From positions 1-42,407 of the forward strand of contig CALRGA010000001.1 of NCBI GenBank assembly GCA_943357025.1: a stretch of 42,407 nucleotides of DNA. The letters are read 5' to 3'. This document shows positions 9,117 to 41,008 of this stretch, piece after piece; position 1 is the stretch's first letter, and each line of letters opens with the position of its first letter. Both the position numbers and the translations under genes were made by a program. Under the pieces are notes generated by a model that saw nothing but the letters and a program-made list of their open reading frames with translations, did not search any database and had not been told where the DNA came from. This DNA comes from Candidatus Uhrbacteria bacterium RIFOXYB12_FULL_58_10 (GTDB lineage Bacteria; Patescibacteriota; Patescibacteriia; UBA9934; GWF2-40-263).

Positions 9117-9650
9117 CTACGCTCCTGGAGCCGGAGCTTCGGAGGACAAGTCCTCATCGTCTCCTTCGTCGTGCTGGTGATTCGGGTGGCCGTGCTGGTG
9201 CAATCCGGGGACGCGGCTCGCGTAGAGAAGCGTGACGACTCCCGCGACGATGACGATGTCGGAGACGTTGATCGCCGAGCGACCGAACAGGATGAGATAG
9301 TCGACCGTGAAGCCGTACGCGACGCGGTCATACGTGTTTCCAATCGCGCCGATGACGATCATGACCGCGGAAAATGCCACGACGGGCTTTTCTTTGAAGT
9401 TCTTGCGCGCGACCCACAGCAGCGCGAGGCCGATGACTGCCGAGACGCTTATGATTAAGTGCATCTTGAACGGGATGTCGAATGCAATCCCCCAGTTCTT
9501 GTGAATTGCGAGCGCGACGATGCCCGGGGCCGTGAGAGCGCTCTCATCCGGAAGGGCCGACAACGCCCAGTGCTTCACGACCTCGTCGGCGAACACTAAG
9601 ATGCCGACGACCGGAAGCAGCCAGAGGATGGACGCGCGCGGTCTCGTCAC
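9117..9650 (-). CDS. lspA: Lipoprotein signal peptidase II
   Basis: NWGIAFDIPF and IGAIGNTYDRVAYGFTVDYL motifs with 4 TM helices. The track ORF extends to 9740 but would overlap the upstream gene by 94 nt. The in-frame GTG at 9650 gives a GTGA overlap with that gene's stop. Confidence 0.85.
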   Translation of the reverse strand: MTRPRASILWLLPVVGILVFADEVVKHWALSALPDESALTAPGIVALAIHKNWGIAFDIPFKMHLIISVSAVIGLALLWVARKNFKEKPVVAFSAVMIVIGAIGNTYDRVAYGFTVDYLILFGRSAINVSDIVIVAGVVTLLYASRVPGLHQHGHPNHQHDEGDDEDLSSEAPAPGA

Positions 9651-10021
9651 ATCTCCTGGGTGAGCGTCTTCTTGCACTGGATGCAGGACGAAGACGTCGG
9701 CCTCGCGGCGATTCGGCGCTCGTCGATAGGGAGCTTGCAATACTTGCAGGTGCCGTATGTTCCTGCCTCGATCATCTTGAGGGCGCCGTCGATATCCTTC
9801 AGTGATTTCTCCAGTTCTTCCTCCATCGAAAGGTTGTCGCTGTATTGGGCGGCCTCGGCGGCATTATCGCCCTCCTCGGTGCCAACGTCCTTGAAGTCGA
9901 CCTGAAATTCAGGTTCGCCCGGGTTTGGGTTGCGATGGGAAAATTGCGCGAGTTCCTGTGTCACGCGCGCGCGGTCGGCAGTAAGCAGTTCCTTGATCGC
10001 CTGGATATCGAGTGTGCCCAT
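9647..10021 (-). CDS. DksA/TraR-family C4-type zinc-finger protein
   Basis: C-terminal sequence GTYGTCKYCKLPIDERRIAARPTSSSCIQCK after a coiled-coil-like N-terminal half. Confidence 0.88.
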   Translation of the reverse strand: MGTLDIQAIKELLTADRARVTQELAQFSHRNPNPGEPEFQVDFKDVGTEEGDNAAEAAQYSDNLSMEEELEKSLKDIDGALKMIEAGTYGTCKYCKLPIDERRIAARPTSSSCIQCKKTLTQEM

Positions 10022-10045
10022 ATTGATTTCGCTAAGAATACACAG

Positions 10046-10074
10046 ATGATAGCAGTGTTTCGACGAAGACGCAA
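10046..10074 (-). promoter_or_regulatory. Predicted promoter of the dksA-type gene
   Basis: On the minus strand: TTGCGT (10074-10069), 17 nt, TATCAT (10051-10046). The leader to the ATG at 10021 is 24 nt. Confidence 0.5.
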
Positions 10075-10084
10075 TGAATTTTCA

Positions 10085-10132
10085 AATAAAAAAGAGGCCG
10101 TCACCTGATTTTAAATAATCTAAGGTGCGGCC
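10085..10132 (-). terminator. Intrinsic terminator ending the candidate ncRNA
   Basis: On the minus strand GGCCGCACCU (10132-10123) pairs with AGGUGaCGGCC (10107-10097), followed by UCUUUUUUAUUU. Confidence 0.6.
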
Positions 10133-10464
10133 CCTTTCGGGGCCAGCGTCAGCCTTTTCAGGCATCGGGTTTCGATTCCTTCTGGGAAGGACGTAAAACT
10201 CGATGCCCGGAACTGCATGTTGCATTGGACCCGTAGGCGTACTTCTCTACCACTCTTTGGTTTCATCCGCGCTTCGAACACGAGGGATCGAATGATTGCG
10301 GAGTTACCGTAGATGGTTTTGCTTTTGTTTTGATCTTTCAATCAGAACAGTAGAGAAGCGGGATATTTTCCGAAAGTCATATGGTCGATTGCGTGGGGCA
10401 CAATCGACCGGCTTTCGGAAAACCTCCCTGTGAGGTGTTTGGAAGGAACGAACTGTTGGGTACT
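10090..10464 (-). ncRNA. Candidate structured non-coding RNA of about 375 nt, family not identified
   Basis: Bounded by a near-consensus promoter and an intrinsic terminator. Helices seen by eye: nested perfect helices 10366-10376/10412-10422 (11 bp) and 10383-10391/10401-10409 (9 bp); a long-range 9-bp helix 10242-10250/10350-10358; helix 10161-10167/10201-10207; and a GAAA-capped hairpin at 10129-10144. The only ORF is 73 aa with a TTG start and weak GC3. Confidence 0.5.
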
Positions 10465-10469
10465 TCTAT

Positions 10470-10498
10470 ATAATACATCCTTGAACACAAAAAGTCAA
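10470..10498 (-). promoter_or_regulatory. Predicted sigma70-type promoter of the candidate ncRNA
   Basis: On the minus strand: TTGACT (10498-10493), 17 nt, TATTAT (10475-10470). Confidence 0.6.
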
Positions 10499-10569
10499 AA
10501 ATCAAGAAATGAAGTAACCTAGCGAAAATATCACGAAGTGTGAAATTTTTGTGCTCAAGTGCTCTGAAC

Positions 10570-10621
10570 TGTGGATAAAAGTTATCCACAGTTATACCTA
10601 GTTTTCACCAAGTTATCCACA
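10570..10621. promoter_or_regulatory. Cluster of three exact and two degenerate DnaA boxes
   Basis: Exact boxes: TGTGGATAA 10570-10578, TTATCCACA 10582-10590, TTATCCACA 10613-10621. Degenerate boxes: TTATACCTA 10592-10600, TTTTCACCA 10602-10610. An AT-rich tract lies immediately to the left. Confidence 0.65.
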
Positions 10622-10622
10622 T

Positions 10623-11921
10623 TCAGTAACAGAGATGGATCGTTGTGTGAAAATACCCTTCATCAAGTCCGATGACACCGTAGGTATTTGCTAAAACACT
10701 GAGTAATGCAGCGGATCTCGCATGCATGGAGTCCTTAGACAGGTCGAGCAACGAGCGAACGTCGACGAATGCCGCGTTCGAGGAGCAAAGCGGGCGTACC
10801 CCCGTCTTCTTTTCACCCAGGCTGAAGTCTAGCAACGCTTGTGAATTTGTGATCGTCACGATCTCATCCAGTTCCGAGGAAAATACATATCCGCCTTCTC
10901 TGCTTGAGGCACGCGATACAATTGTGCCGGCGACGGTCGTCTCCTCGATCGTGGTAAGGGACGGATCGACGATAATCTCATCCGCGACCGAGTTGTCCGG
11001 CAGCACAAGCGGCTGGATTCTTGGTATTTGTAGCGCTGCGGCCATCTGAACGAGCTTTTCCTGCGATTCCTTTTTGAATTGTACCGAGGAGGTCGTAAGC
11101 AGATAATCCACGAAATCCTTGTTTTTCACCAGGATGACCGTTCCTTTGTTTGAGAGGAGATGAGAGGCGAGGAATGCCGCCGAAGGGGTCTGATACGAGG
11201 AAAGAATCGTATCGATAGCATTTGTTACCCCATCCACATTCGTGTTTGGCAACGCTGGTGTGGACATCACGGCGATCGTCGACTCTGGAACAGTTTTCCA
11301 TGGGAGGACGGACAGGTGTTGTTTTGGCAACCGAATGGTCGTCTGACCCTTTGTCGCATAGATTGCGCCGGAAAGATCCGTTTCCCCTGGGACATACATG
11401 CTTCCGATGCGTGGATTCCATGGAAAATGAACGGAGCCGAACCAAATATGCGACGGATTCCACCCTGATCGAGCCATCGGGCGGTCGGACAGGAGGATGA
11501 CTCCAGGCGCGGTCTCCTGGACGATGATGCCCAGGGCGTCGAGTTCGGACGTCGGCAGGTCTGCTTTCGCCGCCCGCACGGCCACCGACCGCGTTCCGTC
11601 CGTCGCGACGAACAGCGAGAACTCGCCGCGCGCGAACGGCTGAATGTCGTCGGTGGTCAGTGGGCGGTTGGAAACAAGTGGAATTTTGTCTAAAACGCGC
11701 TCCGTCGCGTCCCAAGTCAGTAGATTCGGAAGGAAATGTAGAACGACAGCCGTATCCTGCGGGGCGGATGAGGAGGTTGTGTCCCGCCCGTACCAAATCG
11801 TCGCGGCGACCATCAGAATGAGAAACCCGATGGTTGCCGCCACGGCAAAGAGCGAAACAACCCGCCGTGAAAGGCGGGTTGTCTGCTGGTATCGGTGGAG
11901 TGGGATGTTCAGCCTCTGCAC
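10623..11921 (-). CDS. Hypothetical membrane-anchored protein (432 aa)
   Basis: Long ORF immediately downstream of pnp. N-terminal TM segment VVSLFAVAATIGFLILMVAATIWY. No motif recognised. Confidence 0.8.
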   Translation of the reverse strand: MQRLNIPLHRYQQTTRLSRRVVSLFAVAATIGFLILMVAATIWYGRDTTSSSAPQDTAVVLHFLPNLLTWDATERVLDKIPLVSNRPLTTDDIQPFARGEFSLFVATDGTRSVAVRAAKADLPTSELDALGIIVQETAPGVILLSDRPMARSGWNPSHIWFGSVHFPWNPRIGSMYVPGETDLSGAIYATKGQTTIRLPKQHLSVLPWKTVPESTIAVMSTPALPNTNVDGVTNAIDTILSSYQTPSAAFLASHLLSNKGTVILVKNKDFVDYLLTTSSVQFKKESQEKLVQMAAALQIPRIQPLVLPDNSVADEIIVDPSLTTIEETTVAGTIVSRASSREGGYVFSSELDEIVTITNSQALLDFSLGEKKTGVRPLCSSNAAFVDVRSLLDLSKDSMHARSAALLSVLANTYGVIGLDEGYFHTTIHLCY

Positions 11922-11942: not shown

Positions 11943-14105
11943 TTACGCGTTTTTCGGGCGCTCCGGGAATACGTTTCCCGTGGCCTGCTTCATTGAGAGG
12001 TTAATGCGGCCAAGGTTGTCGATTTCCGTGACCTTCACGAACACCTCCTGGCCCACCTTGACGATATCACCCGGCTCGGCAACGCGCCAGGGAGCCATTT
12101 CGCTCACGTGCACAAGACCTTCCTGCTTCGGCAGGAACTCGACGAACGCTCCGAAACCCATGAGACGCGTCACTTTTCCCTTGAACTGCTCGCCCACGGC
12201 GGCCTTCCGCGTGAGGTTGCGGACCCAGTCGTATGCCTGCTGCGCGGCCTCCGCGTTGACCGACGTGATCATGACGAGTCCGTCGTCCTCGATATCGATG
12301 GATCCGACGCCCGTGGTGGCGATGATCTCGTTGATCATCTTTCCTCCAGGTCCGATGACGGCTCCGATCGATTCCGGGTCGATGCGCAGCGTGATGATGC
12401 GCGGGGCGAACTGCGACAGCTCGTTGCGCGGCGCGGCGATGGCGCCGTCCATGACGTCGAGAATCTCGAGGCGGGCGGTAAGCGCCTGCGCCAGCGTCTG
12501 GGCGAGCACTTCCGGGCCGACGCCCTTGGTCTTCGTGTCCATCTGAATGGCGGTGATTCCGGCGCGGGTTCCGGCGATCTTGAAGTCCATGCCTCCGGCG
12601 CCGTCCTCGAGGTCCTGCAGGTCGGTGATTACCTTCCAGTTTCCCTTGTCATCGGTCGCGAGGCCCATCGCGATCCCGGCCACGGCGGCCTTGATCGGAA
12701 CTCCGGCGTCCATCAGGGCGAGCGACGATCCGCAGGTGGAGCCCATCGACGACGAGCCGTTCGACGAAAGGACCTCGGAAACGACGCGGATCGTGTACGG
12801 GAACGCCTCCTTTTCCGGCAGCATCGGCAGGATCGCCTTTTCCGCGAGCGATCCGTGTCCGATCTCGCGGCGTCCCGGCCCGCGCATCGGCTTGCATTCG
12901 CCGACCGAGTACGGGGGGAAGTTATAGTGATGGAAGTAATTCTTGGTTCCCTGGAATTCCATCGAGTCAAGCGTCTGCTTGTCGCCCGGCGAGCCGAGCG
13001 TCACCGTCGAGAGCACCTGCGTCTCGCCGCGCATGAAGTGTCCTGATCCGTGAAGGCGCTTGAACAGGCCCACTTCGGAGATCAGCTGGCGGATCTGCGT
13101 GATGGAGCGTCCGTCGACGCGCTTCTGCTCCTCGAGGATCATGCGGGACACCTCGTGCTCGAGCACCTCCTCGACGATGGACGTGCCGTACTTGGCGTCG
13201 GCCGCCTCGATTCCCTTCTCGAGCAGGAACGCCTCGGTGCGCTTCTTCGTCTCGGTCTTCTGCTGCGCGCGCTCAACCTTCGTTGCGCGGGGCGTTCCGA
13301 AGAAAAGTTCCATGACCTGCGCCGTGATAAACGGGCGGGCGATGGACTGAACCTCTTCGCGCCGGGCGAACTTTGCGGCCTCGGCGTCGTTCTTCGGGGA
13401 AACCATGTCTCGCTTGGCCTTGCCGACCGCGGCGCGGGCCTCCTCGATAAGCCTGATCGGCACGGCGAGATGCTTGGACCCGAAGGCGAACGCGTCGACG
13501 ACGGTCGATTCGACCGCCTCGCTCGCTCCCGCCTCGACCATGATCACCTTTTCCGGCGTTCCGGCGAACGACAGGTCGAGGCCGCTCTTGGCGCGCACCT
13601 CGTACGTCGGGTTGATCGTCCACTCGCCGCCGATCTGGCCGATGCGGATGTTTGCGATCGGGCCGTCCCACGGGATGTCCGAGATGTGCAGCGCGCAGGC
13701 GGCGCCGATGAGTCCGATGATGTCCGGATCGTTTTCGCCGTCGAACTGGAGGACGGTGACGATCACTTGGATGTCATTGCGCATGCGGTCGTCGAACAGC
13801 GGGCGGATGGCGCGGTCGATGTAGCGCGCGACGAGCATCGCGTCGTCGGTGGCGCGACCTTCCTTCTTCATGAACCGCGAGCCTTTGATGCGTCCGGCGG
13901 CGTAGAAGCGCTCTTCGTACTCCACCTGGAGCGGAAAGAAGTCGAGGCCGTCGCGAAGCCCCGTGCTCATGCACGCGGTGGCGAGGACGACGGTGTCGCC
14001 GTACTGAACGGTGCAGGAGCCGTTCGCCGGATTGGCGAACTTTCCCGTCTCGATGATGAGGTCCTTTCCGCCCCACTGCGCGGCAAACGTCTTGGTTTCT
14101 GACAT
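11943..14105 (-). CDS. pnp: Polyribonucleotide nucleotidyltransferase (PNPase)
   Basis: Two RNase PH domains ([17 protein letters not shown], ...[21 protein letters not shown]), a KH domain ([15 protein letters not shown]) and an S1 domain ([15 protein letters not shown]). The track start is 14156. I prefer the ATG at 14105 ([13 protein letters not shown]...), which gives a typical N-terminus. Confidence 0.95.
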
Positions 14106-14180
14106 ACTCTTGATCGTTCCCGTCGAAAGTGAAGGTATCGAGATTACTCTCGACATCTCTGTGTCTCGACGGGAGCGTTG

Positions 14181-15341: not shown

Positions 15342-15465
15342 AATTTCGTCACGCGCGTCCGAGAAACGGAGTTGAGCCCGGCTCCAAGGCGGCGTCGCAA
15401 GAGTGAATTACAGGGGAAGAATAGCAAAAGGCGGGTTTTTCGTCAATTCTGGCACAGGGATACGG

Positions 15466-15471
15466 TATACT
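15466..15471 (+). promoter_or_regulatory. -10 box of the giant ORF (leaderless layout)
   Basis: TATACT lies 8 nt upstream of the ATG at 15480. No good -35 box is present. Confidence 0.4.
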
Positions 15472-15479
15472 GTCACGGT

Positions 15480-18400
15480 ATGGCGATCGATATCATCTCA
15501 CCGGAGGAGGAAGCGGCGCGGGCGGCGAATTTAAAGAAGGCGAAGGTCGATCTGTTTATAGGGAAACCCTTTTGGTTTGAGGATTTTCTTCGGAACAACG
15601 GCCCGCTTTCCGACGTCGACCGGATTCATGCGGAGGCATTGGCGCTGAACGGATATCTCTTCGCGAAGGAGAAAGGCGGGGATATCGAGACGTACGAGCG
15701 GCTGTTCCCGTTTTTCGCCGAGGGCCCGTCTTCTCCTGAGTTCCTGCGCGTGGCAAAGGAACGCATGCGCCGCAGCCTTCGGGTCGGGTGGATGGAGAAC
15801 GTCGCGGAAGCGCTGAAGGACGGATGGATTCAGCCGGAATATCTGGCGTCCGAGGAGGCGATCGCGTTCGCCCTGGAGTTCGTCGCGAAGAGAGCGAGGG
15901 ATTCGCACGCGGACAGCGAGGTGATCGGCATGCTCGCCCTTCCGTTTCCCGCGTCGTTCTTCGAATCGAGTGCCGTCATGTCGATGCTGCGCGGATGCGT
16001 TGGGAACTTCATTCGATACCGCGTGCAGGACGCGGAGAAAATCCTCGGCCGTCTCCGCGGAACGGCATTCGAGCCTTCCCCGGAAAGCATTGAGACGGAC
16101 GCGAAGGTTGGGATCCACCAGGCGTTTTGCAAGGACAAGCCCGAGGTGGTGGACGCGTACATTCGCGACTATGGGATGGCCGGCGAGATGCCGACCGGCG
16201 CGGAACGCCACAAAGCCGCCGAGGAATATCTGCGGCACGAGAATATCGATGGGCTGTTGGAGTACGTCCGCCGCTTTGGGAGCGAGGGCATTGGGCAGGA
16301 AGGCAGCCGGGTGCATTCCCTCGATGGTGCGATTGCGGAACGGGCGGCGGAACGGGATTGGGAGAGGATCCGGAAGGTGCTGACCGTGCTTGGGATCTCG
16401 GATCGCCAGGCGACGAATCGCGGCCGAGGCCCGGTTGCGCACGCCGTCGACACCTTGGGACAAAACGAGGCGTTTGCGGAGGCCAAGGAGCTTGCAAGGC
16501 AGTACAAAATAAATGACCAGGAGCTCCTGCAGAGGATGGGCTACTCTATCCAGGTGGCCTTCCGCCAAAGACACGACGTTCTCGCGAACACGCCCGAGGA
16601 ACCGACCAATGTCGCCCGCACGCTGTTGTCGGATGTGGACCGTGTTTTCGAAAGGTTTGCCAGCGTCTTTCCGGACATCGAGCCGGAACGGCTGTCGCAA
16701 GGGCGACGGGAAACCCTCACGAGATTTCTGGAACGAAATTCGTACCAAAACAAGATCCTTCCGTCCGAGCTGGCGATGTACGACGCGATGTTCGCGGAAA
16801 CCGGCGATCCGGAATGGAAGCGACAGAAAGAAAAGGCGATCCATTCCAAATTGTTCGAATACAACCTTCCGGAGTTCCAGGCGGCCGTGAAATCCCTGGA
16901 GGGAATGGGAGTAACCATGGACGATCCGGCCGTCAAAACGCTGGCATGGGTCGTGGGCGGTGGGCTGTCTTCCATGGGGAAAAAGAAAGTCGCGAAGTTC
17001 ATGAGGATCCACGGCATCGGCGCGGAGGCGTTCGAAACTCCCGCGATGCGTCCCGTCGTTGACGAACGTGCGCGGGCCTTGCTGCGCGAGCTGAATTTTT
17101 TCCAGCTGGACCGGCTGACGGAACTGACGAAGACGGACTGCGCGGAACGGGCGATCGCGACGGCGAGGGAATCGCGCGACTTCGACCACGACCGCCTGGT
17201 GAACGGAATCCGGAACGGGGACAAGCGCACGGTCGAGATCGCACAACGGCTTGGACTGACCGCCGATGATTTCCCGGGATCGCTTCCGCCAAGCTTCGTG
17301 ACGGGGGCGCTTCCCGAGTCATTGCGCCCGGTGCTTGGCCGGGACGCGTGGGCGCCGGCGTACAAGCGGATGCTCAACCTTCAGGGACGAAGCTCCCGCG
17401 CCATGTACGACCCGTGGGTCACGGACTTCGATCCGCTTGTGGACCGTCTGGCGAAGGCGGGAATGATCGATCGCGAAAAGGCCGAGGACGGCGAGATCGT
17501 GCTCGAGTTCGTGCGACAGTTCGGGATGACGAGCGCGCCCATGCTCGCGGAGACGTTCGTGGAACTGAGGCGCGGAAAAAAATTCGCAGAGCTGTCCGAG
17601 GCACAACGCCGACGACTTACGGAGACGATCGGAAAGCGGGTCGAGCGCATGACGAACGAGCAGCTCGTCAACGAGATGAAGCTGACGCGGGCAAGGCTCG
17701 TCGGCGAACTGCTGAACGACGAGATTCCAAGAGGCCTTTCGACGGAACTCGGATTGGAAATGCTTTCCTCGATGACCGGCGTTTCCATGTGGACGCGGCC
17801 GGAGGACAGTCCCGCGGAGCTTGTCGCGACCCTGCGGGAGACGTTGTCCGATCCGGTTCGACGCGCGGCGCTGATGCCGCCGGACGCATATTTCGACCGA
17901 CGCGACCCTGCGCGCACGAGCGGCATGGCCCTGACGGTCCGCGAGGCCCGCCGCAGTCCCGCCCCGCCAGAATCAAGGGAGGTCGCCTCGAGGCAGATCG
18001 ACGAGCTTCTTGCCGAACGGCCGGAAGCGCCCACGAGCGCGGGACGGTTCTACCTGGCGCTCAAGGAAGCCTGCTCCGTCGCCACCGAGGACGCGGAACC
18101 GGCCTCCGAGGCGCTTCGGAACCTGTTCCTTGGAAAAAGTTGCTCCGAGGACATTCCCGATATCAACCGCGACTCGGCCATGAGGAAGGACGCGCTCGAA
18201 TGGATGAGCCGGCAAATTCGGGAGCTTGCCGTCCGAGGCGCGGTAATTTCAAAGGAGGACTGGCTCGCGCTTTCCGTCGTCCTTCTCCAATCGAGCGGCA
18301 AGGATTCTTCCTGGGCCCGCGAGATCATCCAAATTTCACGCGAGGAAGCGTCGCTGACGGCTGATTCGCTCGAACGGCTGAGCGAGGCGCTTCGCCTCTT

Positions 18401-19142
18401 CGTCTTCGAGCATTTCCTCGCCGAGGACCAGGCGCGCCATGGCGATAATCCGAACCCGCTTGGGGACGAGCTGCTCCGCGCGTTTCGATCTGCCTGGGAA
18501 TTGGAAACCGACCGTCAGGACAAACACCCGATTCTCCTTGCGGCGCAGGAGGTTGACCGGCTGAGGGAAGGAATGGAACGGGTAACGTTTGGAAAGGAGA
18601 TAACTGTCTCGCTCGTGGCCGCGGGCGCCGTGCCGCGCGTCTTTGCCGGCGACGTGGCCGACGCGTGTTACACGAGCAAGCACCAGGAGCTCGCCGAGGG
18701 AGAATTTCCCGGCGTGCGGTCGCTCATGTTCGTGACGAACCGAGGCGACGGGAAGGAGCGGATCATGGGCAGCGTCCTATTCGTGGAGGCGATCACGCCG
18801 AGCGGAGAGAAGGTGCTGGTCGTTCGCGCGAACAATCCGCGGCAGAACTTGCTCGGAAAGGTTTCGGCGGACGACCTCGTGGAACAGACGATCCAGGCCG
18901 CGATCCGCGTGGCCGAGCGCGGCGGGTTCGACATGGTTGCCCTGCCGCCGGATTTCGCGGGGCAGAGCTCGAGCAACCGTCCCGAGGTCAGCAAGATCTA
19001 TCGGACGCGGTTTCGAAAGAATCGCCGCGTTCGCCTCGTCGAGAATCCCGACACGACGTTCAACGGCTACAAGGTTTGGGACGACAAGGGCCCGCATGGA
19101 GTGGCGGTCGTCTGGGAAAAGAAAACGGGACGGATCGAGTGA
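15480..19142 (+). CDS. Orphan 1221-aa cytoplasmic protein, mostly alpha-helical, with a C-terminal alpha/beta region of about 190 aa
   Basis: Uninterrupted high-GC3 ORF. The track start is a TTG at 15372, but its first 36 codons are Arg-rich and include the -10 box, so I chose the ATG at 15480 (MAIDIISPEEE...). No TM segment, signal peptide or catalytic motif was recognised by eye. Confidence 0.85.
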   Translation: MAIDIISPEEEAARAANLKKAKVDLFIGKPFWFEDFLRNNGPLSDVDRIHAEALALNGYLFAKEKGGDIETYERLFPFFAEGPSSPEFLRVAKERMRRSLRVGWMENVAEALKDGWIQPEYLASEEAIAFALEFVAKRARDSHADSEVIGMLALPFPASFFESSAVMSMLRGCVGNFIRYRVQDAEKILGRLRGTAFEPSPESIETDAKVGIHQAFCKDKPEVVDAYIRDYGMAGEMPTGAERHKAAEEYLRHENIDGLLEYVRRFGSEGIGQEGSRVHSLDGAIAERAAERDWERIRKVLTVLGISDRQATNRGRGPVAHAVDTLGQNEAFAEAKELARQYKINDQELLQRMGYSIQVAFRQRHDVLANTPEEPTNVARTLLSDVDRVFERFASVFPDIEPERLSQGRRETLTRFLERNSYQNKILPSELAMYDAMFAETGDPEWKRQKEKAIHSKLFEYNLPEFQAAVKSLEGMGVTMDDPAVKTLAWVVGGGLSSMGKKKVAKFMRIHGIGAEAFETPAMRPVVDERARALLRELNFFQLDRLTELTKTDCAERAIATARESRDFDHDRLVNGIRNGDKRTVEIAQRLGLTADDFPGSLPPSFVTGALPESLRPVLGRDAWAPAYKRMLNLQGRSSRAMYDPWVTDFDPLVDRLAKAGMIDREKAEDGEIVLEFVRQFGMTSAPMLAETFVELRRGKKFAELSEAQRRRLTETIGKRVERMTNEQLVNEMKLTRARLVGELLNDEIPRGLSTELGLEMLSSMTGVSMWTRPEDSPAELVATLRETLSDPVRRAALMPPDAYFDRRDPARTSGMALTVREARRSPAPPESREVASRQIDELLAERPEAPTSAGRFYLALKEACSVATEDAEPASEALRNLFLGKSCSEDIPDINRDSAMRKDALEWMSRQIRELAVRGAVISKEDWLALSVVLLQSSGKDSSWAREIIQISREEASLTADSLERLSEALRLFVFEHFLAEDQARHGDNPNPLGDELLRAFRSAWELETDRQDKHPILLAAQEVDRLREGMERVTFGKEITVSLVAAGAVPRVFAGDVADACYTSKHQELAEGEFPGVRSLMFVTNRGDGKERIMGSVLFVEAITPSGEKVLVVRANNPRQNLLGKVSADDLVEQTIQAAIRVAERGGFDMVALPPDFAGQSSSNRPEVSKIYRTRFRKNRRVRLVENPDTTFNGYKVWDDKGPHGVAVVWEKKTGRIE

Positions 19143-32222: not shown

Positions 32223-32873
32223 TTATTCCGTAAACGATTGGCTGAGCGCGCGCGCCTCCTTGGTGACGAACCGTTTTAATTCGTCGATCCCTAGAGGGAC
32301 CGTCATCTTTGGAAGTGCCTCGACGCGCCGTACCTTCGCCAGCTCGCTGCCGAGGAACAGGTCAGTGATGGCGCTGCCGAATTTCGTTTCCGCGTCACGA
32401 CGAATGTCGGCGAGAGGGCGATTCTGAAGGATCGCGTATAGGTCGACGAAATCCTTCGGGTCGAATCGGTTGAGGAGGGCCATGAGCTTGTTGGCGGAGA
32501 CGTCGCGCAGGCTGTCGACGCGCACTCCTTCCTCGACGCGGATTGGATCGAGCCGCGCGAACGGATAGCGAGTGAACTCGAGCTTGAGCTCGTAGTCGCC
32601 GATGCCTAGAAAATAGAGGTTGCGGTCGAAGATTTGGTCCGAACGAAGCCGGTCCGCTCCAAGCGTAAATTTGAGATTGTCGATGAACGACGTGAGGAAT
32701 GCGCGGTCGCACGGCTCGGACGTGAAAAAGTCTAGGTCGTCCGATACGCGATGATGGAGATAGTACGCGGACAGCGCCGTGCCGCCGGACAAATAGTATC
32801 CGTCGAGACGCGGCTCGTCATTCACGATGCGAAGGACTTCCTTCTGCGTATCGGTTAAAATGGCTTGTTCCAT
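32223..32873 (-). CDS. Nucleotidyltransferase AbiEii/AbiGii-family toxin-like protein (DUF1814)
   Basis: YYLSGGTALSAYYLHHRVSDDLDFF matches the Pol-beta-type G[GS]-x10-D-x-D motif. The length and the helical C-terminal half are typical of short AbiEii proteins. Confidence 0.88.
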   Translation of the reverse strand: MEQAILTDTQKEVLRIVNDEPRLDGYYLSGGTALSAYYLHHRVSDDLDFFTSEPCDRAFLTSFIDNLKFTLGADRLRSDQIFDRNLYFLGIGDYELKLEFTRYPFARLDPIRVEEGVRVDSLRDVSANKLMALLNRFDPKDFVDLYAILQNRPLADIRRDAETKFGSAITDLFLGSELAKVRRVEALPKMTVPLGIDELKRFVTKEARALSQSFTE

Positions 32874-34999: not shown

Positions 35000-35075
35000 G
35001 GGCTAGTAGCTCAGATGGTAGAGCGCTGCATTCGCATTGCAGAGGTCTGGGGTTCGATTCCCCACTGGTCCACCA
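35000..35075 (+). tRNA. tRNA-Ala (anticodon CGC) with the G3:U70 identity pair, CCA encoded
   Basis: Acceptor GGGCTAG/CTGGTCC, D arm GCTC-AGATGGTA-GAGC, anticodon stem-loop CTGCA-TTCGCAT-TGCAG, T arm TGGGG-TTCGATT-CCCCA. Confidence 0.93.
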
Positions 35076-35609: not shown

Positions 35610-35648
35610 TGTGGATAAGTATTCGAAAAGTGTTTATCCTGTGGGTAA
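35610..35648. promoter_or_regulatory. One exact and one near-exact DnaA box
   Basis: TGTGGATAA at 35610-35618 is exact. TGTGGGTAA at 35640-35648 has one mismatch. Confidence 0.45.
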
Positions 35649-35687
35649 TTATAATGAATACGAAAGAATTAATCGCGAAAGAAAATA

Positions 35688-35715
35688 ATTTATTCGCTAA
35701 AATCAGCGAATAAAT
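35688..35715. promoter_or_regulatory. Perfect 11-bp inverted repeat just upstream of the operon -35 box (operator-like site or AU-rich terminator)
   Basis: ATTTATTCGCT-aaaatc-AGCGAATAAAT, ending 3 nt before the TTGACC at 35719. Confidence 0.5.
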
Positions 35716-35718
35716 CTT

Positions 35719-35747
35719 TTGACCAAACCATGTATTCAAGGTATAAT
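35719..35747 (+). promoter_or_regulatory. Near-consensus sigma70 promoter of the surface-protein operon
   Basis: TTGACC (35719-35724), 17 nt, TATAAT (35742-35747). The leader to the ATG at 35770 is 22 nt. Confidence 0.7.
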
Positions 35748-37642: not shown

Positions 37643-40600
37643 GTGTTCACTCGCTGGTCAAAATCGCTCTGGAGCGTCGTATCCGTCATCGTTAGCGTAA
37701 CGATGTTGGTTGCGGCTGCTTCATACGCGGCCACGGCAAGCCCGGCAAACGACACGCCGACGTCGCTTCGAACGTCGGAAGGCGCGAATCATTTCCTGGT
37801 CTTTACCACTCCGAGCGGGGTTTCCGAGGGCGAGACGGTCGTCGTCGGTTTCAGCTCGGCGTTCGACACGTCCGGGATCGTCGAGGACGACGTGGACGCT
37901 CAGGACGACGGGGCCGACCTCACCACCGCGGCGAATTGCGGCGGCGCGGAGCAGGCATCCGTCGTAATGGCATCGGACGCGCTCACGATCACGATCTGTC
38001 CCGGCGATGGGGGCGCGATCGCGGCGGCGAGCGAGATCACGGTGAAGATCGGCACGAACGCGACGGCTTCGGGAATCGGAGCCAACCAGGTCGTCAATCC
38101 GGCAACCGTCGGAACCTACTACGTTTCCATTGCCGGAACGTTCGGCGACTCCGGATCGATCGCCCTTCCCATGCTTGAGGAGGGATCGGTCGGAGTCACG
38201 GGAACGGTCCCGCCGTCGCAGGGCGGAGGTGGCGGTGGAGTACCTTCGGAAGGATGCGGAGACTCGATTGCGCCGGAGATTTTCTCGGTCGTCATCTCGA
38301 ACGTCACGGACTCGTCCGCGACCGTCGGCTGGTCAACGAGCGAGAACGCGGACAGCGCGGCGGACTACGGCACGACCGCATCGTATGAGATCGCAACGGA
38401 ATCAAGCTCAAGCCTCGTCACGTCGCACTCTGAAGTCCTTTCAGGGCTGTCGGAAGGAACAACGTATCACGTTCGCGTCCGGTCGAGCGACCTGTGCTCG
38501 AATCAGGCATCGTCCGGAGACCAGACGTTCTCGACGAACGACGCGACCGCGCCGATCATCTCGAGCGTCGTCGCGACGGTCACGTCCTCGACGTCCGTCA
38601 CGATTACCTGGACCACGATTGAGCCGGCAACGAGCTGGGTCAACTACGGCGCGACCGCGTCCTACGGAACCGTTGTTGGGGACTCGACGCTCTCCACCAG
38701 CCACTTGGTCATTATCACCGGGCTCGACGAGGGAACGACGTATCACTTCGACGTCGAATCCGCGGACGCGTCCGGCAATTCGGCAACGTCGTCCGATGAC
38801 ACGTTCGTCACGTCGTCGAATCCAGCTCCTTCCAACGTGTCGGATCTCGTCGTCGACGCTTCCTCGGGAGCCGTGGAACTCTCGTGGACCAATCCGTCCG
38901 ACGCCGATTTCGAAGGAGTTCGCGTTTTGATGTGCATGGACGGTTTTCCGTCCGGACCAGACGACACCGACTGTACGGTTGTCTACTCTGGCGTAGCCAA
39001 CGCGACGAGCGTCGAAACGCTCATGGATGGCACAACCTATTACTTCGGGGTCTTCGCGCAAGACGCCGCTGGGCAGTTCGCTTCTGGCGCTCTCGGTTTA
39101 GGTACTCCGAGCACGCCAGTAGAAGAGGTGCCCATGCCCGAAGAGGTTTCCGTACCTGCAGTGACCCCTCCCGAAGAGGAAACGACCGTCTCGGCAGAAA
39201 CCGGAACGGATCAAACGGTTTCGACGGAAACGCTTTCGGCCGTCGACGAATCGGAAGAGCCTTCGGAAGCAGTCCCTGCAGGGATTGAAACCCCATCGGA
39301 TCAGACACCTCCCATTCCTCCCACCACCGTCGTGGAAGAGGATCTTGTCCCACAAGGGGACGTAACGTTCTTTGTCGCCAGCGGAACGATCCAGCTTGCC
39401 CCGTCCGGCTCCGGCACGGTGCACGTCCTTGGAAACCGTCCGCTAAGCGTGATGCTTGAAACAAAGCATCTCACGAAGGAAATCTCGCGCGTCCAGCTCG
39501 TCCTCGGAGCCAGCGCCTATATCATGGCCCTGTCCAACGACGGCAGCACGTATGCGGCCGACGTCTCCACCCCCGGAGCGCCCGCCGATTACGGAATCGC
39601 GACGAGCATCTACTACGCCGATGGAACGGTCCAATCCATCGGAACCAACCTCGAGGTCGAAGGCGACGGGTACGCCTACTTCCAACAGGAAGGACAACTC
39701 TCTCGCGTCGGAGGCGCGAACGTCACGCTGCTAACGAACGGCACTGTTCCCTGGGACGGATCCCCCTTCGCACAGTTCAATCCGATCGTTACCGCAGAAG
39801 ACGGGCAGTTCGGCTGGTACGTTCCGAACACGACGTACGCTCTTTCCGCGGATGCAGGCGGGTACCTGCAAGCCGGGACAAGGACGTTTTCCGTGACGGA
39901 CAACATTGCCAACCAGGCCATCCGCATGGAATTGCACCAGGCGGATTCCGCACCTCCGGCGCAAATCACCGACGTGGTGATGTCGAACCTTTCCGTCGTG
40001 GGCACGTTTGTGTCCGCGACGCTCGAATCCGTTCGAGCCGTACCGGGAGTCGAAGAGGCGGCCGCGGTCTCCACCCCCGCGCTCGTCGTCGTCACGGCCG
40101 CATCGGCGGTCGTGCTCGCGACGAGCTTCAATCTTCTCGCGTTCCTTCAGTCGCTCTTTACGTCTCCGCTCCTGTTCTTCGGGCGTCGTACGCGCCGGTC
40201 GTACGGGGTGGTGTACAACTCGATTACGAAAGTTCCTTTGGACCTCGCCACCGTTCGATTGTTCCGAATGCCGGACGACTGGAACGGCGCGAAGGACGTC
40301 GTCGGAAAGCTCGTCCAAAGCCGCGTAACCGACAAGGGCGGAAGATATTTTTTCCTTCCTCCTCCCGGCCGGTACCGGCTGAGCGTGATCAAGAATCAGT
40401 TCGTCTTTCCGTCCGAGTATCTCGGAGGAGCGAAGGATGACGGATCGTTCCTTGACGTCTACCACGGAGAGCCGATCGTCGTGACGGACGCGAACGCGAG
40501 CATTTCCGCGAACGTTCCGCTCGACCCGACTCAGGCTTCCGCGCAACACGCGTCGGCGCAAGTTCTCCTCAGAACGAAGCTGCGTCGCATTCAGAAGGCC

Positions 40601-41008
40601 GCCTCCCTCGCCGGGATCGTCCTCTCCGTGTTCGTCGCGGTCATTCGCCCAACCTTGTTTTCGATCGCGATGATCGGCGCGCAGGTTGGGTTCTATCTCC
40701 TCGTTCGGCGCCTTGCCATTCCGCGAAAACCCAAGTCCTGGGGAATCGTGTACGACCAGGAAACGGGCCGGCCGCTCGGACGCGTGATCGCCCGCGTGTT
40801 CGAACCGAAATACAACAAGCTGCTCGAGACCGCTGTCACGGACGGCAAGGGACGATACACGTTCCTCCTCGGTCCGAACGAGTACTACACCGTCTACGAA
40901 AAGGCTGGCTTCGAGAATGCCGAAATTCGGCCGATCGACTATCGCAACCTAACGGAACCTTCGGAATTCTCTCGTGACATCTCGATGATGCGCGGGAAGT
41001 CGGTATGA
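37643..41008 (+). CDS. 1121-aa multidomain envelope protein: N-terminal anchor, three FN3 domains, Glu/Pro/Thr linker, beta-sandwich region, and three carboxypeptidase-regulatory-like domains interleaved with TM helices
   Basis: GTG start. FN3 domains at about aa 210-300, 305-395 and 400-490 (ATVGWSTSE...GTTYHVRVRS; VTITWTTIE...GTTYHFDVES; VELSWTNPS...GTTYYFGVFA). CarboxypepD_reg-like signatures VTAEDGQFGWYVPNTTYALSA, VTDKGGRYFFLPPPGRYRLSV and VTDGKGRYTFLLGPNEYYTVYEKAGF. Hydrophobic segments at about aa 811-846 and 986-1022. Confidence 0.9.
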   Translation: MFTRWSKSLWSVVSVIVSVTMLVAAASYAATASPANDTPTSLRTSEGANHFLVFTTPSGVSEGETVVVGFSSAFDTSGIVEDDVDAQDDGADLTTAANCGGAEQASVVMASDALTITICPGDGGAIAAASEITVKIGTNATASGIGANQVVNPATVGTYYVSIAGTFGDSGSIALPMLEEGSVGVTGTVPPSQGGGGGGVPSEGCGDSIAPEIFSVVISNVTDSSATVGWSTSENADSAADYGTTASYEIATESSSSLVTSHSEVLSGLSEGTTYHVRVRSSDLCSNQASSGDQTFSTNDATAPIISSVVATVTSSTSVTITWTTIEPATSWVNYGATASYGTVVGDSTLSTSHLVIITGLDEGTTYHFDVESADASGNSATSSDDTFVTSSNPAPSNVSDLVVDASSGAVELSWTNPSDADFEGVRVLMCMDGFPSGPDDTDCTVVYSGVANATSVETLMDGTTYYFGVFAQDAAGQFASGALGLGTPSTPVEEVPMPEEVSVPAVTPPEEETTVSAETGTDQTVSTETLSAVDESEEPSEAVPAGIETPSDQTPPIPPTTVVEEDLVPQGDVTFFVASGTIQLAPSGSGTVHVLGNRPLSVMLETKHLTKEISRVQLVLGASAYIMALSNDGSTYAADVSTPGAPADYGIATSIYYADGTVQSIGTNLEVEGDGYAYFQQEGQLSRVGGANVTLLTNGTVPWDGSPFAQFNPIVTAEDGQFGWYVPNTTYALSADAGGYLQAGTRTFSVTDNIANQAIRMELHQADSAPPAQITDVVMSNLSVVGTFVSATLESVRAVPGVEEAAAVSTPALVVVTAASAVVLATSFNLLAFLQSLFTSPLLFFGRRTRRSYGVVYNSITKVPLDLATVRLFRMPDDWNGAKDVVGKLVQSRVTDKGGRYFFLPPPGRYRLSVIKNQFVFPSEYLGGAKDDGSFLDVYHGEPIVVTDANASISANVPLDPTQASAQHASAQVLLRTKLRRIQKAASLAGIVLSVFVAVIRPTLFSIAMIGAQVGFYLLVRRLAIPRKPKSWGIVYDQETGRPLGRVIARVFEPKYNKLLETAVTDGKGRYTFLLGPNEYYTVYEKAGFENAEIRPIDYRNLTEPSEFSRDISMMRGKSV

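What the first reader, a model, noticed from the sequence alone, without database searches (positions are those of the whole stretch)
10085..10498. Self-contained promoter-to-terminator unit of about 375 nt with extensive helices and no credible ORF: candidate unclassified structured RNA
On the minus strand, a near-consensus promoter (TTGACT-17-TATTAT) is followed by about 375 nt and then an intrinsic terminator (10-bp stem plus UCUUUUUUAUUU). The downstream dksA-type gene has its own promoter, so this is not simply its leader. Four kinds of helix are visible by eye. First, a nested perfect 11-bp plus 9-bp hairpin (10366-10422), extended by a GGGA/UCCC pairing. Second, a 9-bp long-range helix (10242-10250 with 10350-10358). 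Third, a GGCAUCG/CGAUGCC helix enclosing a small hairpin (10161-10207). Fourth, a GAAA-capped GGCCCC/GGGGCC hairpin that overlaps the terminator 5' arm, which allows alternative pairing. The size is in the RNase P RNA or tmRNA range. I could not find the RNase P CR-I/CR-V motifs, a tmRNA tRNA-like end or tag ORF, or the SRP domain IV motif.
Basis: seen in the sequence. Interest (0 to 1): 0.65.

Follow-up and report, generated by a model that had tools for sequence, protein, structure and literature searches.

The report
New large structured RNA in Uhrbacteria
This spacer encodes a real, roughly 375-nucleotide folded RNA with its own promoter and terminator; it is conserved across Uhrbacteria (tiny uncultured groundwater bacteria), matches no catalogued RNA family, and sits behind a conserved pair of binding sites for the replication initiator DnaA, so it is a new orphan RNA with unknown function.

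Summary
On the minus strand, a TTGACT-17-TATTAT promoter (10498-10470) is followed by about 377 nt (10463 to about 10087) and an intrinsic terminator. The fold is far more stable than shuffles (z = -9.3).

The same RNA occurs in every relative I could fetch: about 18 distinct sequences, all Candidatus Uhrbacteria or unnamed Patescibacteria. It always lies between a 42x-aa hypothetical gene and a DksA/TraR zinc-finger gene.

Three covariance models give 105 base pairs. About 68 of them show compensatory changes, with 0 of 500 shuffles reaching the observed values in each domain.

The 73-aa ORF is broken in 13 of 17 relatives. No Rfam family matches, not even at E<=10, and the RNase P CR-I/CR-V motifs and tmRNA features are absent.

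The dksA-type gene keeps its own extended -10 element in all lineages. The terminator covaries, but the GAAA-hairpin alternative pairing does not.

Best reading: an independent, probably trans-acting, unclassified large ncRNA whose transcription is tied to DnaA. Its function is unknown.

The parts
10613..10621 (-). DnaA box 1 (TGTGGATAA on the RNA strand), 1 bp after the stop codon of the upstream 432-aa ORF.
   Evidence: Perfect 9/9 match. Present in all 20 related loci, 31 bp from box 2 in 19 of 20.
10582..10590 (-). DnaA box 2 (TGTGGATAA), 92 bp upstream of the -35 start.
   Evidence: The distance from box 2 to the -35 is 91-92 bp in 18 of 20 loci, 78 bp in L022 and 72 bp in L027.
10570..10578 (+). 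DnaA box 3, inverted and 3 bp from box 2. Lineage-specific.
   Evidence: Seen only in the window, L007, L008 and L011.
10546..10559 (-). Conserved upstream motif CTTGAGCACAAAAA (consensus TTGAAYAC), followed by an AT-rich palindrome. It is the inverted repeat of TTTTTGTGTTCAAG in the promoter spacer.
   Evidence: Alignment of upstream regions; sequences printed.
10470..10498 (-). Sigma-70-type promoter of the RNA gene: TTGACT-17-TATTAT.
   Evidence: TTGAC and the -10 element are conserved in all relatives.
10087..10463 (-). The RNA itself, about 377 nt. Both ends are inferred: the 5' end from the -10 position, the 3' end from the U-tract.
   Evidence: nhmmer E = 1e-57 to 1e-114 in relatives. 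CM hits of 52-160 bits per domain, apart from L150/L152, where only the domain B model scored (72 bits).
10429..10463 (-). 5' tail, mostly unpaired (GUACCCAACAGUUCGUUCCUUCCAAACACCUCACA). The GUUCYUU core is kept in nearly all lineages.
   Evidence: Alignments A7 and A12.
10360..10428 (-). H1: long hairpin (18 + 11 bp) with an A-rich bulge and a nearly invariant apical loop CCCCA.
   Evidence: 90.9% of cells paired, 16 of 29 pairs compensatory, 0/500 shuffles.
10242..10358 (-). Domain B. H2 is a 14-bp long-range helix (10358-10345 with 10255-10242). It encloses an A-rich single strand, H3 (10308-10259) and the variable hairpin H4 (10292-10273).
   Evidence: 93% paired, 18-19 of 29 pairs compensatory, 0/500 shuffles. 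Slid controls give 33-50% paired.
10138..10233 (-). Domain C. H5 is an interrupted helix (10233-10214 with 10154-10138). It encloses H6 (10208-10160) and H6's inner hairpin.
   Evidence: helices 1-4. H6 has 8 of 14 pairs compensatory and its inner hairpin 6 of 6.
10129..10144 (-). GGCCCC-GAAA-GGGGCC hairpin. It is mutually exclusive with the base of H5 and with the terminator stem.
   Evidence: Present in sequence. No covariation. Absent or replaced in L027, L029, L150 and L153.
10084..10137 (-). Intrinsic terminator: GGGGCCG-CACCU ... AGGUG-A-CGGCCUC, then U6AU3.
   Evidence: MFE. helix 5: 92% paired, 8 of 12 pairs compensatory. Stability is -17 to -25 kcal/mol in all lineages.
10046..10074 (-). 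Putative separate promoter of the dksA-type gene: TTGCGT-17-(TGC)TATCAT, an extended -10 type.
   Evidence: Below the scan's cutoff (3/6 in the -35 hexamer). A TGnTAnnnT element is kept in most of the 11 lineages.
9647..10021 (-). Downstream gene: DksA/TraR C4 zinc-finger protein, 124 aa. Context only.
   Evidence: Pfam PF01258, E = 5e-5. Always the next gene after the RNA.

Best explanation
This is a stand-alone gene for a previously unclassified structured non-coding RNA of about 375 nt, found so far only in Uhrbacteria-type Patescibacteria.

Shown:
- It has a near-consensus sigma-70-type promoter and a covarying intrinsic terminator.
- It folds into three covariation-supported domains. These are a long hairpin H1 with an invariant CCCCA loop; a domain closed by the 14-bp helix H2 that carries a long A-rich single strand; and a domain built from H5 and H6.
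- It is not translated.
- It is at least as conserved as the flanking genes.
- Its promoter sits at a fixed distance behind two perfect DnaA boxes that are three helical turns apart.

Inferred:
- RNA polymerase starts near 10463 and stops at the U-tract near 10087, releasing a discrete RNA that acts in trans.
- The many invariant unpaired stretches (5' tail, CCCCA loop, A-rich linker, internal-loop residues) are recognition surfaces for a protein or RNA partner. On this view the RNA works as an RNP scaffold or protein-binding RNA, in the manner of 6S, OLE or raiA-type RNAs, rather than as a short-seed antisense sRNA.
- DnaA bound to the phased boxes tunes its transcription, which couples RNA level to replication-initiation status.

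The cellular function itself is not known.
For: - Promoter. Its conservation and fixed geometry.
- Stability: z = -9.3.
- Homologues: found in every related locus, always in the order PNPase, hypothetical gene, RNA, dksA-type gene, lspA, comM.
- Covariation: 93.5%, 90.9% and 86.0% of cells paired in the three domains. 18/29, 16/29 and 34/47 pairs show changes on both sides. 0/500 shuffles reach the observed values. Slid controls give 32-57% paired. The MAFFT-only alignment gives 40 of 91 compensatory pairs.
- Strand: reverse-strand CM scores are 30-39 bits against 104-156 bits for the forward strand. Conserved G-U pairs are present.
- Non-coding.
- Conservation: RNA nucleotide identity is 91, 79, 78 and 76% where the neighbouring hypothetical gene is 73, 65, 59 and 56% at nucleotide level and 72-42% at amino-acid level.
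- Independent unit: the terminator is strong and covaries in all lineages. A plain hairpin terminator occurs in L150. The dksA-type gene keeps its own extended -10 element.
- No known family.
- DnaA boxes. That DnaA acts as a transcription factor at box pairs outside the origin is established in E. coli (PMC11317965).
Against: - No expression data. The transcript ends, its abundance and the trans action are all inferred.
- No partner protein or target was identified.
- The RNA is always immediately upstream of, and co-oriented with, the dksA-lspA-comM genes, which would also fit a cis-acting leader.
- In the main clade the terminator 5' arm can alternatively pair with an upstream GGCCCC.
- DnaA binding is inferred from sequence only. 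The boxes could instead be a DnaA-titration site unrelated to the RNA.
- In the most distant relatives the RNA is no more conserved than dksA (about 60% nucleotide identity).
- The alignments used for pair counts were fitted to the proposed structure.
Confidence: 0.7

Rival explanations
1. It is a cis-acting leader (riboswitch-, T-box- or protein-dependent attenuator) of the dksA-lspA-comM genes. A ligand or protein bound to domain C would stabilise helix H5. That would free the terminator 5' arm, so transcription stops. Without the ligand, GGCCCC would pair with GGGGCC as an antiterminator and polymerase would read through.
For: - Invariant synteny and co-orientation with dksA, 65-95 nt upstream of its start.
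- In the main clade the 3' strand of H5, the GAAA hairpin and the terminator are mutually exclusive. The hairpin is more stable than shuffles: -15 kcal/mol, p about 0.02. L017 gives -8.7 kcal/mol, p about 0.03.
Against: - The antiterminator hairpin has 0 of 6 compensatory pairs and is indistinguishable from shuffles.
- It is not better than chance in L027 and L029 and is not evident by eye in L153. In L150 the equivalent hairpin is itself a plain terminator.
- A promoter-like TGnTAnnnT element lies between the terminator and dksA in most lineages examined.
- At 375 nt with three domains, it is far larger than known leaders.
- The terminators are strong, at -17 to -25 kcal/mol with U-tracts.
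Confidence: 0.14
2. It is a highly diverged version of a universal RNA (RNase P RNA, tmRNA, SRP RNA or 6S RNA) that Rfam models fail to score. This is reported for some RNase P RNAs of candidate phyla radiation bacteria.
For: - Its size is in the RNase P/tmRNA range.
- Lui et al. 2021 (PMC8172020) found 10 of 35 circular CPR genomes with RNase P RNA below Rfam thresholds.
- L007 contains CAGAACCCG, which resembles part of CR-V.
Against: - No RF00010, RF00011, RF00023, RF00169 or RF00013 hit even at E<=10 in three divergent homologues.
- ARAGORN finds no tmRNA.
- No CR-I match (<=2 mismatches) or CR-V match (<=3 mismatches) lies inside the RNA.
- The CR-I-like GGAAAAUAUCCC is simply a helix strand. 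It covaries to GCAGGCCAUCCC in L027.
- The CAGAACCCG string is not conserved.
- The covariation-supported topology has no P4-type helix spanning the molecule, no tRNA-like ends, and no single rod with a central bubble.
Confidence: 0.04
3. It is a DNA-level element rather than an RNA. The region would be a replication origin or a DnaA-titration/DARS-like locus, with the inverted repeats acting as DNA structures.
For: - Two to three perfect DnaA boxes with conserved phasing, next to an AT-rich palindromic stretch.
- Local GC drops to 47%.
Against: - Only 2-3 boxes are present.
- No dnaA or dnaN gene lies nearby.
- Genes run through the locus in one direction, and there is no GC-skew switch.
- Helices keep G-U pairs and score 3-5 times higher on one strand. 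That is expected for RNA, not for DNA cruciforms.
- A promoter and a terminator bracket the conserved block exactly.
Confidence: 0.03
4. It encodes a small protein: the 73-aa ORF at 10120-10341, or another short ORF.
For: An uninterrupted TTG-initiated 73-codon ORF exists in the window.
Against: - The aligned frame carries 1-5 in-frame stops, or the start codon is lost, in 13 of 17 homologues. Length differences are not multiples of three in 11 of 17.
- The longest ORFs fall at different places in different lineages.
- Variable columns are spread evenly over codon positions, 65/63/67.
Confidence: 0.01

Closest known systems
Orphan large structured bacterial ncRNAs (OLE, raiA motif, ROOL, GOLLD, smtA motif)
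   Same: It is several hundred nucleotides long. It has many covarying helices plus invariant unpaired nucleotides. It is a stand-alone gene with a narrow phylogenetic range and no known biochemical function.
   Different: There is no sequence or structure match to any of them in Rfam 15. The host lineage differs (Patescibacteria) and so do the neighbours. None of those is known, to my knowledge, to sit behind a DnaA-box pair.
6S RNA / Ms1 (RNA-polymerase-binding RNAs)
   Same: It is a probably abundant RNA with a strong promoter and a terminator. It lies next to a gene for an RNA-polymerase secondary-channel factor homologue (DksA/TraR family).
   Different: There is no RF00013 hit. The architecture is three domains, not one interrupted rod with a central open-promoter-like bubble. 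It is twice the size of 6S RNA.
Bacterial RNase P RNA, including the diverged forms described in candidate phyla radiation genomes (PMC8172020)
   Same: The size is similar (about 330-400 nt), and it has a long hairpin near the 5' end. The host group is known for RNase P RNAs that escape Rfam thresholds.
   Different: CR-I, CR-V and the P4 long-range helix are absent, and there is no weak RF00010 hit. It ends in an intrinsic terminator rather than in a P1 helix.
Transcription-attenuating leaders (riboswitches, T-box)
   Same: It lies directly upstream of, and is co-oriented with, an operon. It ends in a terminator whose 5' arm has an alternative partner in the main clade.
   Different: The alternative pairing does not covary and is not universal. 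A separate promoter-like element follows the terminator. The RNA is much larger than such leaders.
CcnA of Caulobacter crescentus (cell-cycle ncRNA; PMC8959179, title and abstract as listed)
   Same: It is an ncRNA tied to the regulators of replication and the cell cycle.
   Different: CcnA is a short base-pairing sRNA linked to CtrA and GcrA. Here the link is to DnaA boxes, the RNA is large and ornate, and no target is known. The resemblance is conceptual only.

Membership tests
RNase P RNA (bacterial type A/B) | Match to the Rfam covariance models RF00010 or RF00011. | tested here: not met
   No hit at gathering thresholds. No hit at E<=10 on the window locus or on two divergent homologues.
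RNase P RNA (bacterial type A/B) | Conserved regions CR-I (GAGGAAAGUCC) and CR-V (ACAGAAnCCGGCUUA), which pair to form the long-range P4 helix. | tested here: not met
   No CR-I match (<=2 mismatches) or CR-V match (<=3 mismatches) lies inside 10085-10470. The covariation-supported helices include no P4-like pairing.
RNase P RNA (bacterial type A/B) | Being the only RNase P RNA candidate in the genome, that is, no canonical rnpB elsewhere. | not testable with these tools
   Whole Uhrbacteria genomes could not be scanned. Only about 200 kb of loci were available.
tmRNA | A tRNA-like acceptor/T-arm with a CCA end, plus a tag reading frame. | tested here: not met
   ARAGORN finds none. There is no RF00023 hit. 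The RNA ends in a terminator, and no reading frame is conserved.
SRP RNA (4.5S / Bacillus type) | Domain IV helix with symmetric and asymmetric loops and a GNRA loop; match to RF00169 or RF01854. | tested here: not met
   No hit.
6S RNA | A single interrupted rod with a large central bubble; match to RF00013. | tested here: not met
   No hit. The supported structure has three separate domains.
Known large orphan ncRNAs (OLE, GOLLD, ROOL, raiA, HEARO) | Match to the respective Rfam model. | tested here: not met
   No hit in Rfam 15, 4227 families.
Terminator/antiterminator leader (riboswitch-like) | A conserved, mutually exclusive antiterminator pairing. | tested here: not met
   0 of 6 pairs compensatory, the same as shuffles. 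Absent in L027, L029, L150 and L153.
Terminator/antiterminator leader (riboswitch-like) | No independent promoter between the element and the regulated gene. | tested here: not met
   A TGnTAnnnT extended -10 element is conserved between the terminator and dksA. This is consensus evidence only; no transcription start site was mapped.
Structured ncRNA gene (generic) | Conserved secondary structure supported by compensatory substitutions. | tested here: met
   105 pairs, about 68 with changes on both sides. 0/500 shuffles in each domain.
Structured ncRNA gene (generic) | Own promoter and intrinsic terminator. | tested here: met
   Sequence-level evidence; no expression data.
Structured ncRNA gene (generic) | A discrete transcript detected in cells. 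| not testable with these tools
   No transcriptome data are accessible.
DnaA-regulated promoter | Consensus DnaA boxes (TTATCCACA) in conserved positions relative to the promoter. | tested here: met
   Two 9/9 boxes in 19 of 20 loci (one box has a single mismatch in L024). Spacing between boxes is 31 bp in 19 of 20. Distance to the -35 is 91-92 bp in 18 of 20.
DnaA-regulated promoter | DnaA binding and an effect on transcription. | not testable with these tools
   Requires EMSA, ChIP or reporter assays.

The most novel reading that the evidence does not exclude
The RNA is a replication-coupled global regulator peculiar to these ultra-small bacteria. DnaA, through the phased box pair, would set the level of a large RNA that binds the transcription machinery or DnaA itself. 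One possibility is a 6S/Ms1-like RNA-polymerase-binding RNA that works with the adjacent DksA homologue. The RNA would then link chromosome replication status to genome-wide transcription in organisms that have lost most conventional regulators.
Probability: 0.12. Interest if true: 0.85.

Novelty: categorically new. Interest (0 to 1): 0.62.

Why it matters
Large, highly conserved structured RNAs are rare. Every well-understood one (rRNA, RNase P, tmRNA, SRP, 6S, group I/II introns) does something fundamental. The few orphans (OLE, GOLLD, ROOL, raiA) are actively studied.

Candidate phyla radiation bacteria make up a large share of bacterial diversity. They are uncultured, have tiny genomes and few regulators, and almost nothing is known about their non-coding RNAs.

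A 375-nt RNA kept, with its control region, across a whole CPR lineage implies an important function that protein-centred annotation misses. The fixed DnaA-box architecture gives a concrete, testable link to replication control. The covariance models and the alignment made here would allow the family to be searched for in all Patescibacteria genomes and in metatranscriptomes.

Tried and rejected
1. Rfam at relaxed thresholds, on the window locus and on two divergent homologues. Only chance-level miRNA, snoRNA and sRNA hits appeared, and they differed between homologues.
2. RNase P identity. The CR-I-like GGAAAAUAUCCC and the CR-V-like CAGAACCCG turned out to be, respectively, a covarying helix strand and a non-conserved string.
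3. The 73-aa ORF: rejected.
4. A closing helix between the 5' tail (GUUCCUU) and the terminator 5' arm (AAGGGGC). RNAalifold suggested it and one C:G to U:A switch is consistent with it. But the duplex energies are no better than composition-matched shuffles (p = 0.17-0.82), so I do not claim it.
5. The GAAA-hairpin antiterminator: no covariation.
6. Replication origin. There is no skew switch, no dnaA/dnaN and no divergent gene orientation. This is weak evidence, because skew in these genomes follows the coding strand.
7. Search of viral contigs with CTCTACTG-N85-115-TGGTAGAG. It returned 120+ stretches, of which the 80 listed were fetched as loci. None scored with the domain B model (best 16.9 bits, E = 0.6), so these are chance matches.
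8. Reaching beyond Uhrbacteria through DksA homologues. The best 120 hits of two searches were all Uhrbacteria-type orthologues (>=56% and >=67% identity). The outer limits of the family are therefore unknown.
9. Literature searches for a described CPR/Uhrbacteria ncRNA of this kind found nothing.
Full report
**What is there**

The window is a roughly 60% GC contig from a Candidatus Uhrbacteria bacterium (candidate phyla radiation / Patescibacteria). Homologues of its proteins carry that name in public records.

On the minus strand the gene order is:
- PNPase (11943-14156)
- a 432-aa membrane-anchored hypothetical protein with no Pfam domain (10623-11921)
- a 600-bp spacer
- a 124-aa DksA/TraR-type zinc-finger protein (9647-10021)
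- signal peptidase II
- a ComM/Mg-chelatase-like ATPase

The spacer is the only 47% GC stretch in this part of the window.

**Checking the observation**

The promoter TTGACT-17-TATTAT lies at 10498-10470. It is the only promoter-like site found in 9500-11200.

The downstream 386 nt fold at -143.8 kcal/mol. Dinucleotide shuffles give -95.1 +/- 5.2, so z = -9.3.

The terminator was missed by the simple scan because its loop is 16 nt. It is nevertheless the 3' element of the minimum-free-energy fold, and it covaries.

**Known families**

Rfam 15 finds only four tRNAs in the window. A relaxed scan (E<=10) of the locus gives only unrelated chance hits. The same holds for two divergent homologues, where the chance hits are different ones. 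ARAGORN finds no tmRNA.

Lui et al. 2021 report that RNase P RNAs of candidate phyla radiation genomes can fall below Rfam thresholds (PMC8172020). I therefore tested RNase P explicitly:
- No CR-I or CR-V match lies inside the RNA.
- The CR-I-like string GGAAAAUAUCCC is the 3' strand of hairpin H1. It changes to GCAGGCCAUCCC, with compensating changes opposite, in L027.
- The supported topology has no P4-type helix.

**Relatives**

Exact copies of the DksA-type protein occur on 13 contigs with essentially identical spacers. I used homologues of the 432-aa protein (74-29% identity) and of the DksA-type protein as anchors.

With them I fetched about 30 loci from genome, metagenome and SRA assemblies. 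Every one that spans the spacer has the same gene order and a 560-620-bp gap. nhmmer finds the RNA in all of them, with E = 1e-19 to 1e-145.

RNA nucleotide identity to the window is 91, 79, 78 and 76% in loci where the adjacent hypothetical gene is 73, 65, 59 and 56% identical at nucleotide level and 72-42% at protein level. In the most distant loci both the RNA and dksA are near 60%.

**Not coding**

The 73-aa ORF is frameshifted or interrupted in 13 of 17 homologues. The longest ORFs lie at different positions in different lineages. Variable columns are evenly spread over codon positions, 65/63/67 of 74.

**Structure**

RNAalifold on a plain MAFFT alignment predicts 91 pairs, 40 of them with compensatory changes. 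An unbiased scan of the MAFFT alignment for stacked, covarying column pairs recovers H1, H2, H3 and H6.

I then built three covariance models: domain A is the 5' tail plus H1, domain B is H2/H3/H4, and domain C is H5/H6 plus the terminator. I realigned all loci to them.

| Domain | Cells paired | Pairs with changes on both sides |
|---|---|---|
| A | 90.9% | 16 of 29 |
| B | 93.5% | 18 of 29 (19 with more loci) |
| C | 86.0% | 34 of 47 |

In each case 0 of 500 shuffles reached the observed values. Sliding the 3' partners by 1-3 columns dropped pairing to 32-57%.

These alignments are fitted to the structure, which favours it. The MAFFT-only results point the same way.

The RNA strand is clear. 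Reverse-strand scores are 30-39 bits against 104-156 bits, and invariant G-U pairs occur in H2. No second copy exists in the window.

**The 3' end**

In the window and its closer relatives the terminator 5' arm (AAAGGGGCCG) could pair with any of three partners:
- the terminator 3' arm
- the upstream GGCCCC, forming the GAAA-capped hairpin
- the 5' tail GUUCCUU

Only the terminator covaries: 8 of 12 pairs.

The GAAA hairpin has no compensatory pair and equals shuffles. Energetically it beats shuffles in the main clade and in L017, but not in L027 or L029. In L150 the corresponding hairpin (GCCCC-UUCG-GGGGC followed by a U-tract) simply is the terminator.

The tail-to-terminator duplex is no better than composition predicts.

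So a family-wide terminator/antiterminator switch is not supported.

Between the terminator and the dksA-type start codon, most of the 11 lineages examined keep a TGnTAnnnT extended -10 element, usually with TTGCnn 17 nt upstream.

**The control region**

Three perfect DnaA boxes lie just upstream, at 10613-10621, 10582-10590 and 10570-10578. The window holds 11 matches with at most one mismatch, against 2.7 expected.

The first two boxes, in the same orientation, are present in all 20 related loci. One box has a single mismatch in L024. Their spacing is 31 bp in 19 of 20 loci. The second box lies 91-92 bp from the -35 in 18 of 20, at 78 bp in L022 and at 72 bp in L027. The sequence between them has diverged.

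A TTGAAYAC motif and an AT-rich palindrome lie between the boxes and the promoter.

There is no dnaA or dnaN nearby, the genes run through the locus in one direction, and GC skew does not switch. I therefore read this as a DnaA-linked promoter rather than the origin. DnaA acting as a transcription factor at box pairs is established in E. coli (PMC11317965), although the spacing there is 2-3 bp.

A similar module occurs at 35610-35747 in the window: two boxes 30 bp apart, a palindrome, and TTGACC-17-TATAAT.

**Interpretation**

The best-supported reading is a stand-alone gene for an unclassified structured RNA of about 375 nt, released at its own terminator and acting in trans.

Its invariant unpaired segments are the 5' tail, the CCCCA loop of H1, the (ARN)n-like A-rich strand in domain B, and the A/C mismatch in H6. 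These suggest recognition by a protein or RNA partner. The DnaA-box geometry suggests that its level follows replication-initiation status.

What is shown: the gene signals, the conservation, the non-coding nature, the fold, and the absence from known families. What is inferred: the transcript ends, trans action, DnaA control, and any function.

The main rival is a cis-acting attenuator of dksA-lspA-comM. It is weakened by the lack of a conserved antiterminator and by the separate dksA promoter. A diverged universal RNA, a DNA-level origin-like element and a small protein are each unlikely for the reasons given above.

**Novelty and limits**

No Rfam family, and no paper I could find, describes this RNA. 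As a class it joins the small set of orphan large bacterial ncRNAs, but it shares no homology or architecture with them.

Limits:
- There are only about 18 distinct sequences from one lineage.
- There are no expression data.
- Whole genomes could not be scanned for canonical housekeeping RNAs.

Noticed in passing
window 35610-35747: A second module with the same layout as the one upstream of the RNA gene. It has TGTGGATAA and TGTGGGTAA 30 bp apart in the same orientation, an AT-rich palindrome (TTCGCTAAAATCAGCGAA), and then the promoter TTGACC-17-TATAAT. It lies in a 41.8% GC stretch right after tRNA-Ala (35000-35075), upstream of ORFs without Pfam domains.
   Followed up: partly
window 10546-10559 and 10479-10492: CTTGAGCACAAAAA upstream and TTTTTGTGTTCAAG inside the RNA promoter spacer form a 14-bp inverted repeat about 55 bp apart. 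The upstream copy (TTGAAYAC) is kept in nearly all relatives; the spacer copy is kept in about half. This may be an operator pair for an unknown regulator.
   Followed up: partly
window 10570-10590: DnaA boxes 2 and 3 form a head-to-head pair only 3 bp apart (TGTGGATAA-CTT-TTATCCACA). This is the spacing reported as preferred for DnaA dimers in E. coli. It occurs only in the window, L007, L008 and L011.
   Followed up: partly
L150/L152 2560-2965 (Uhrbacteria RIFCSPHIGHO2_12_FULL_47_12): A divergent variant of the RNA. The base of H1 is GAGAUC/GAUCUC instead of GGGA/UCCC, there is an extra 5' hairpin, and the terminator is a plain GCCCC-UUCG-GGGGC hairpin with a U-tract. Only the domain B model scored it well (72 bits).
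   Followed up: partly
L006 position 1 and L155 position 1: Two unrelated short contigs both begin 75-76 nt upstream of the dksA-type start codon, which is at the RNA terminator. This may be an assembly break at the hairpin, or a transcript-derived end if those runs are RNA libraries.
   Followed up: no
L027 10882-16266: In the 842-kb Patescibacteria contig the ComM-like gene is shortened (354 aa). It is followed by an inserted restriction-modification island (Vsr, Z1, NgoFVII-type endonuclease, DNA methylase).
   Followed up: no
window 10310-10340 (RNA domain B): The conserved A-rich single strand reads as five to six consecutive A-R-N triplets (AAC AAA AAC AAA AGC AAA in most relatives). That is the pattern bound by the Hfq distal face in other bacteria. 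Whether these organisms have Hfq was not checked.
   Followed up: no
window 15372-19142 and 37643-41008: Two very large ORFs. One is 1256 aa with no Pfam match. The other is 1121 aa with fn3, purple-acid-phosphatase-N and CarboxypepD_reg domains. They are probably surface proteins.
   Followed up: no
window 32223-32873: A gene for an AbiEii-type nucleotidyltransferase toxin (type IV toxin-antitoxin) lies near the low-GC, tRNA-flanked region. The region may be a small genomic island.
   Followed up: no
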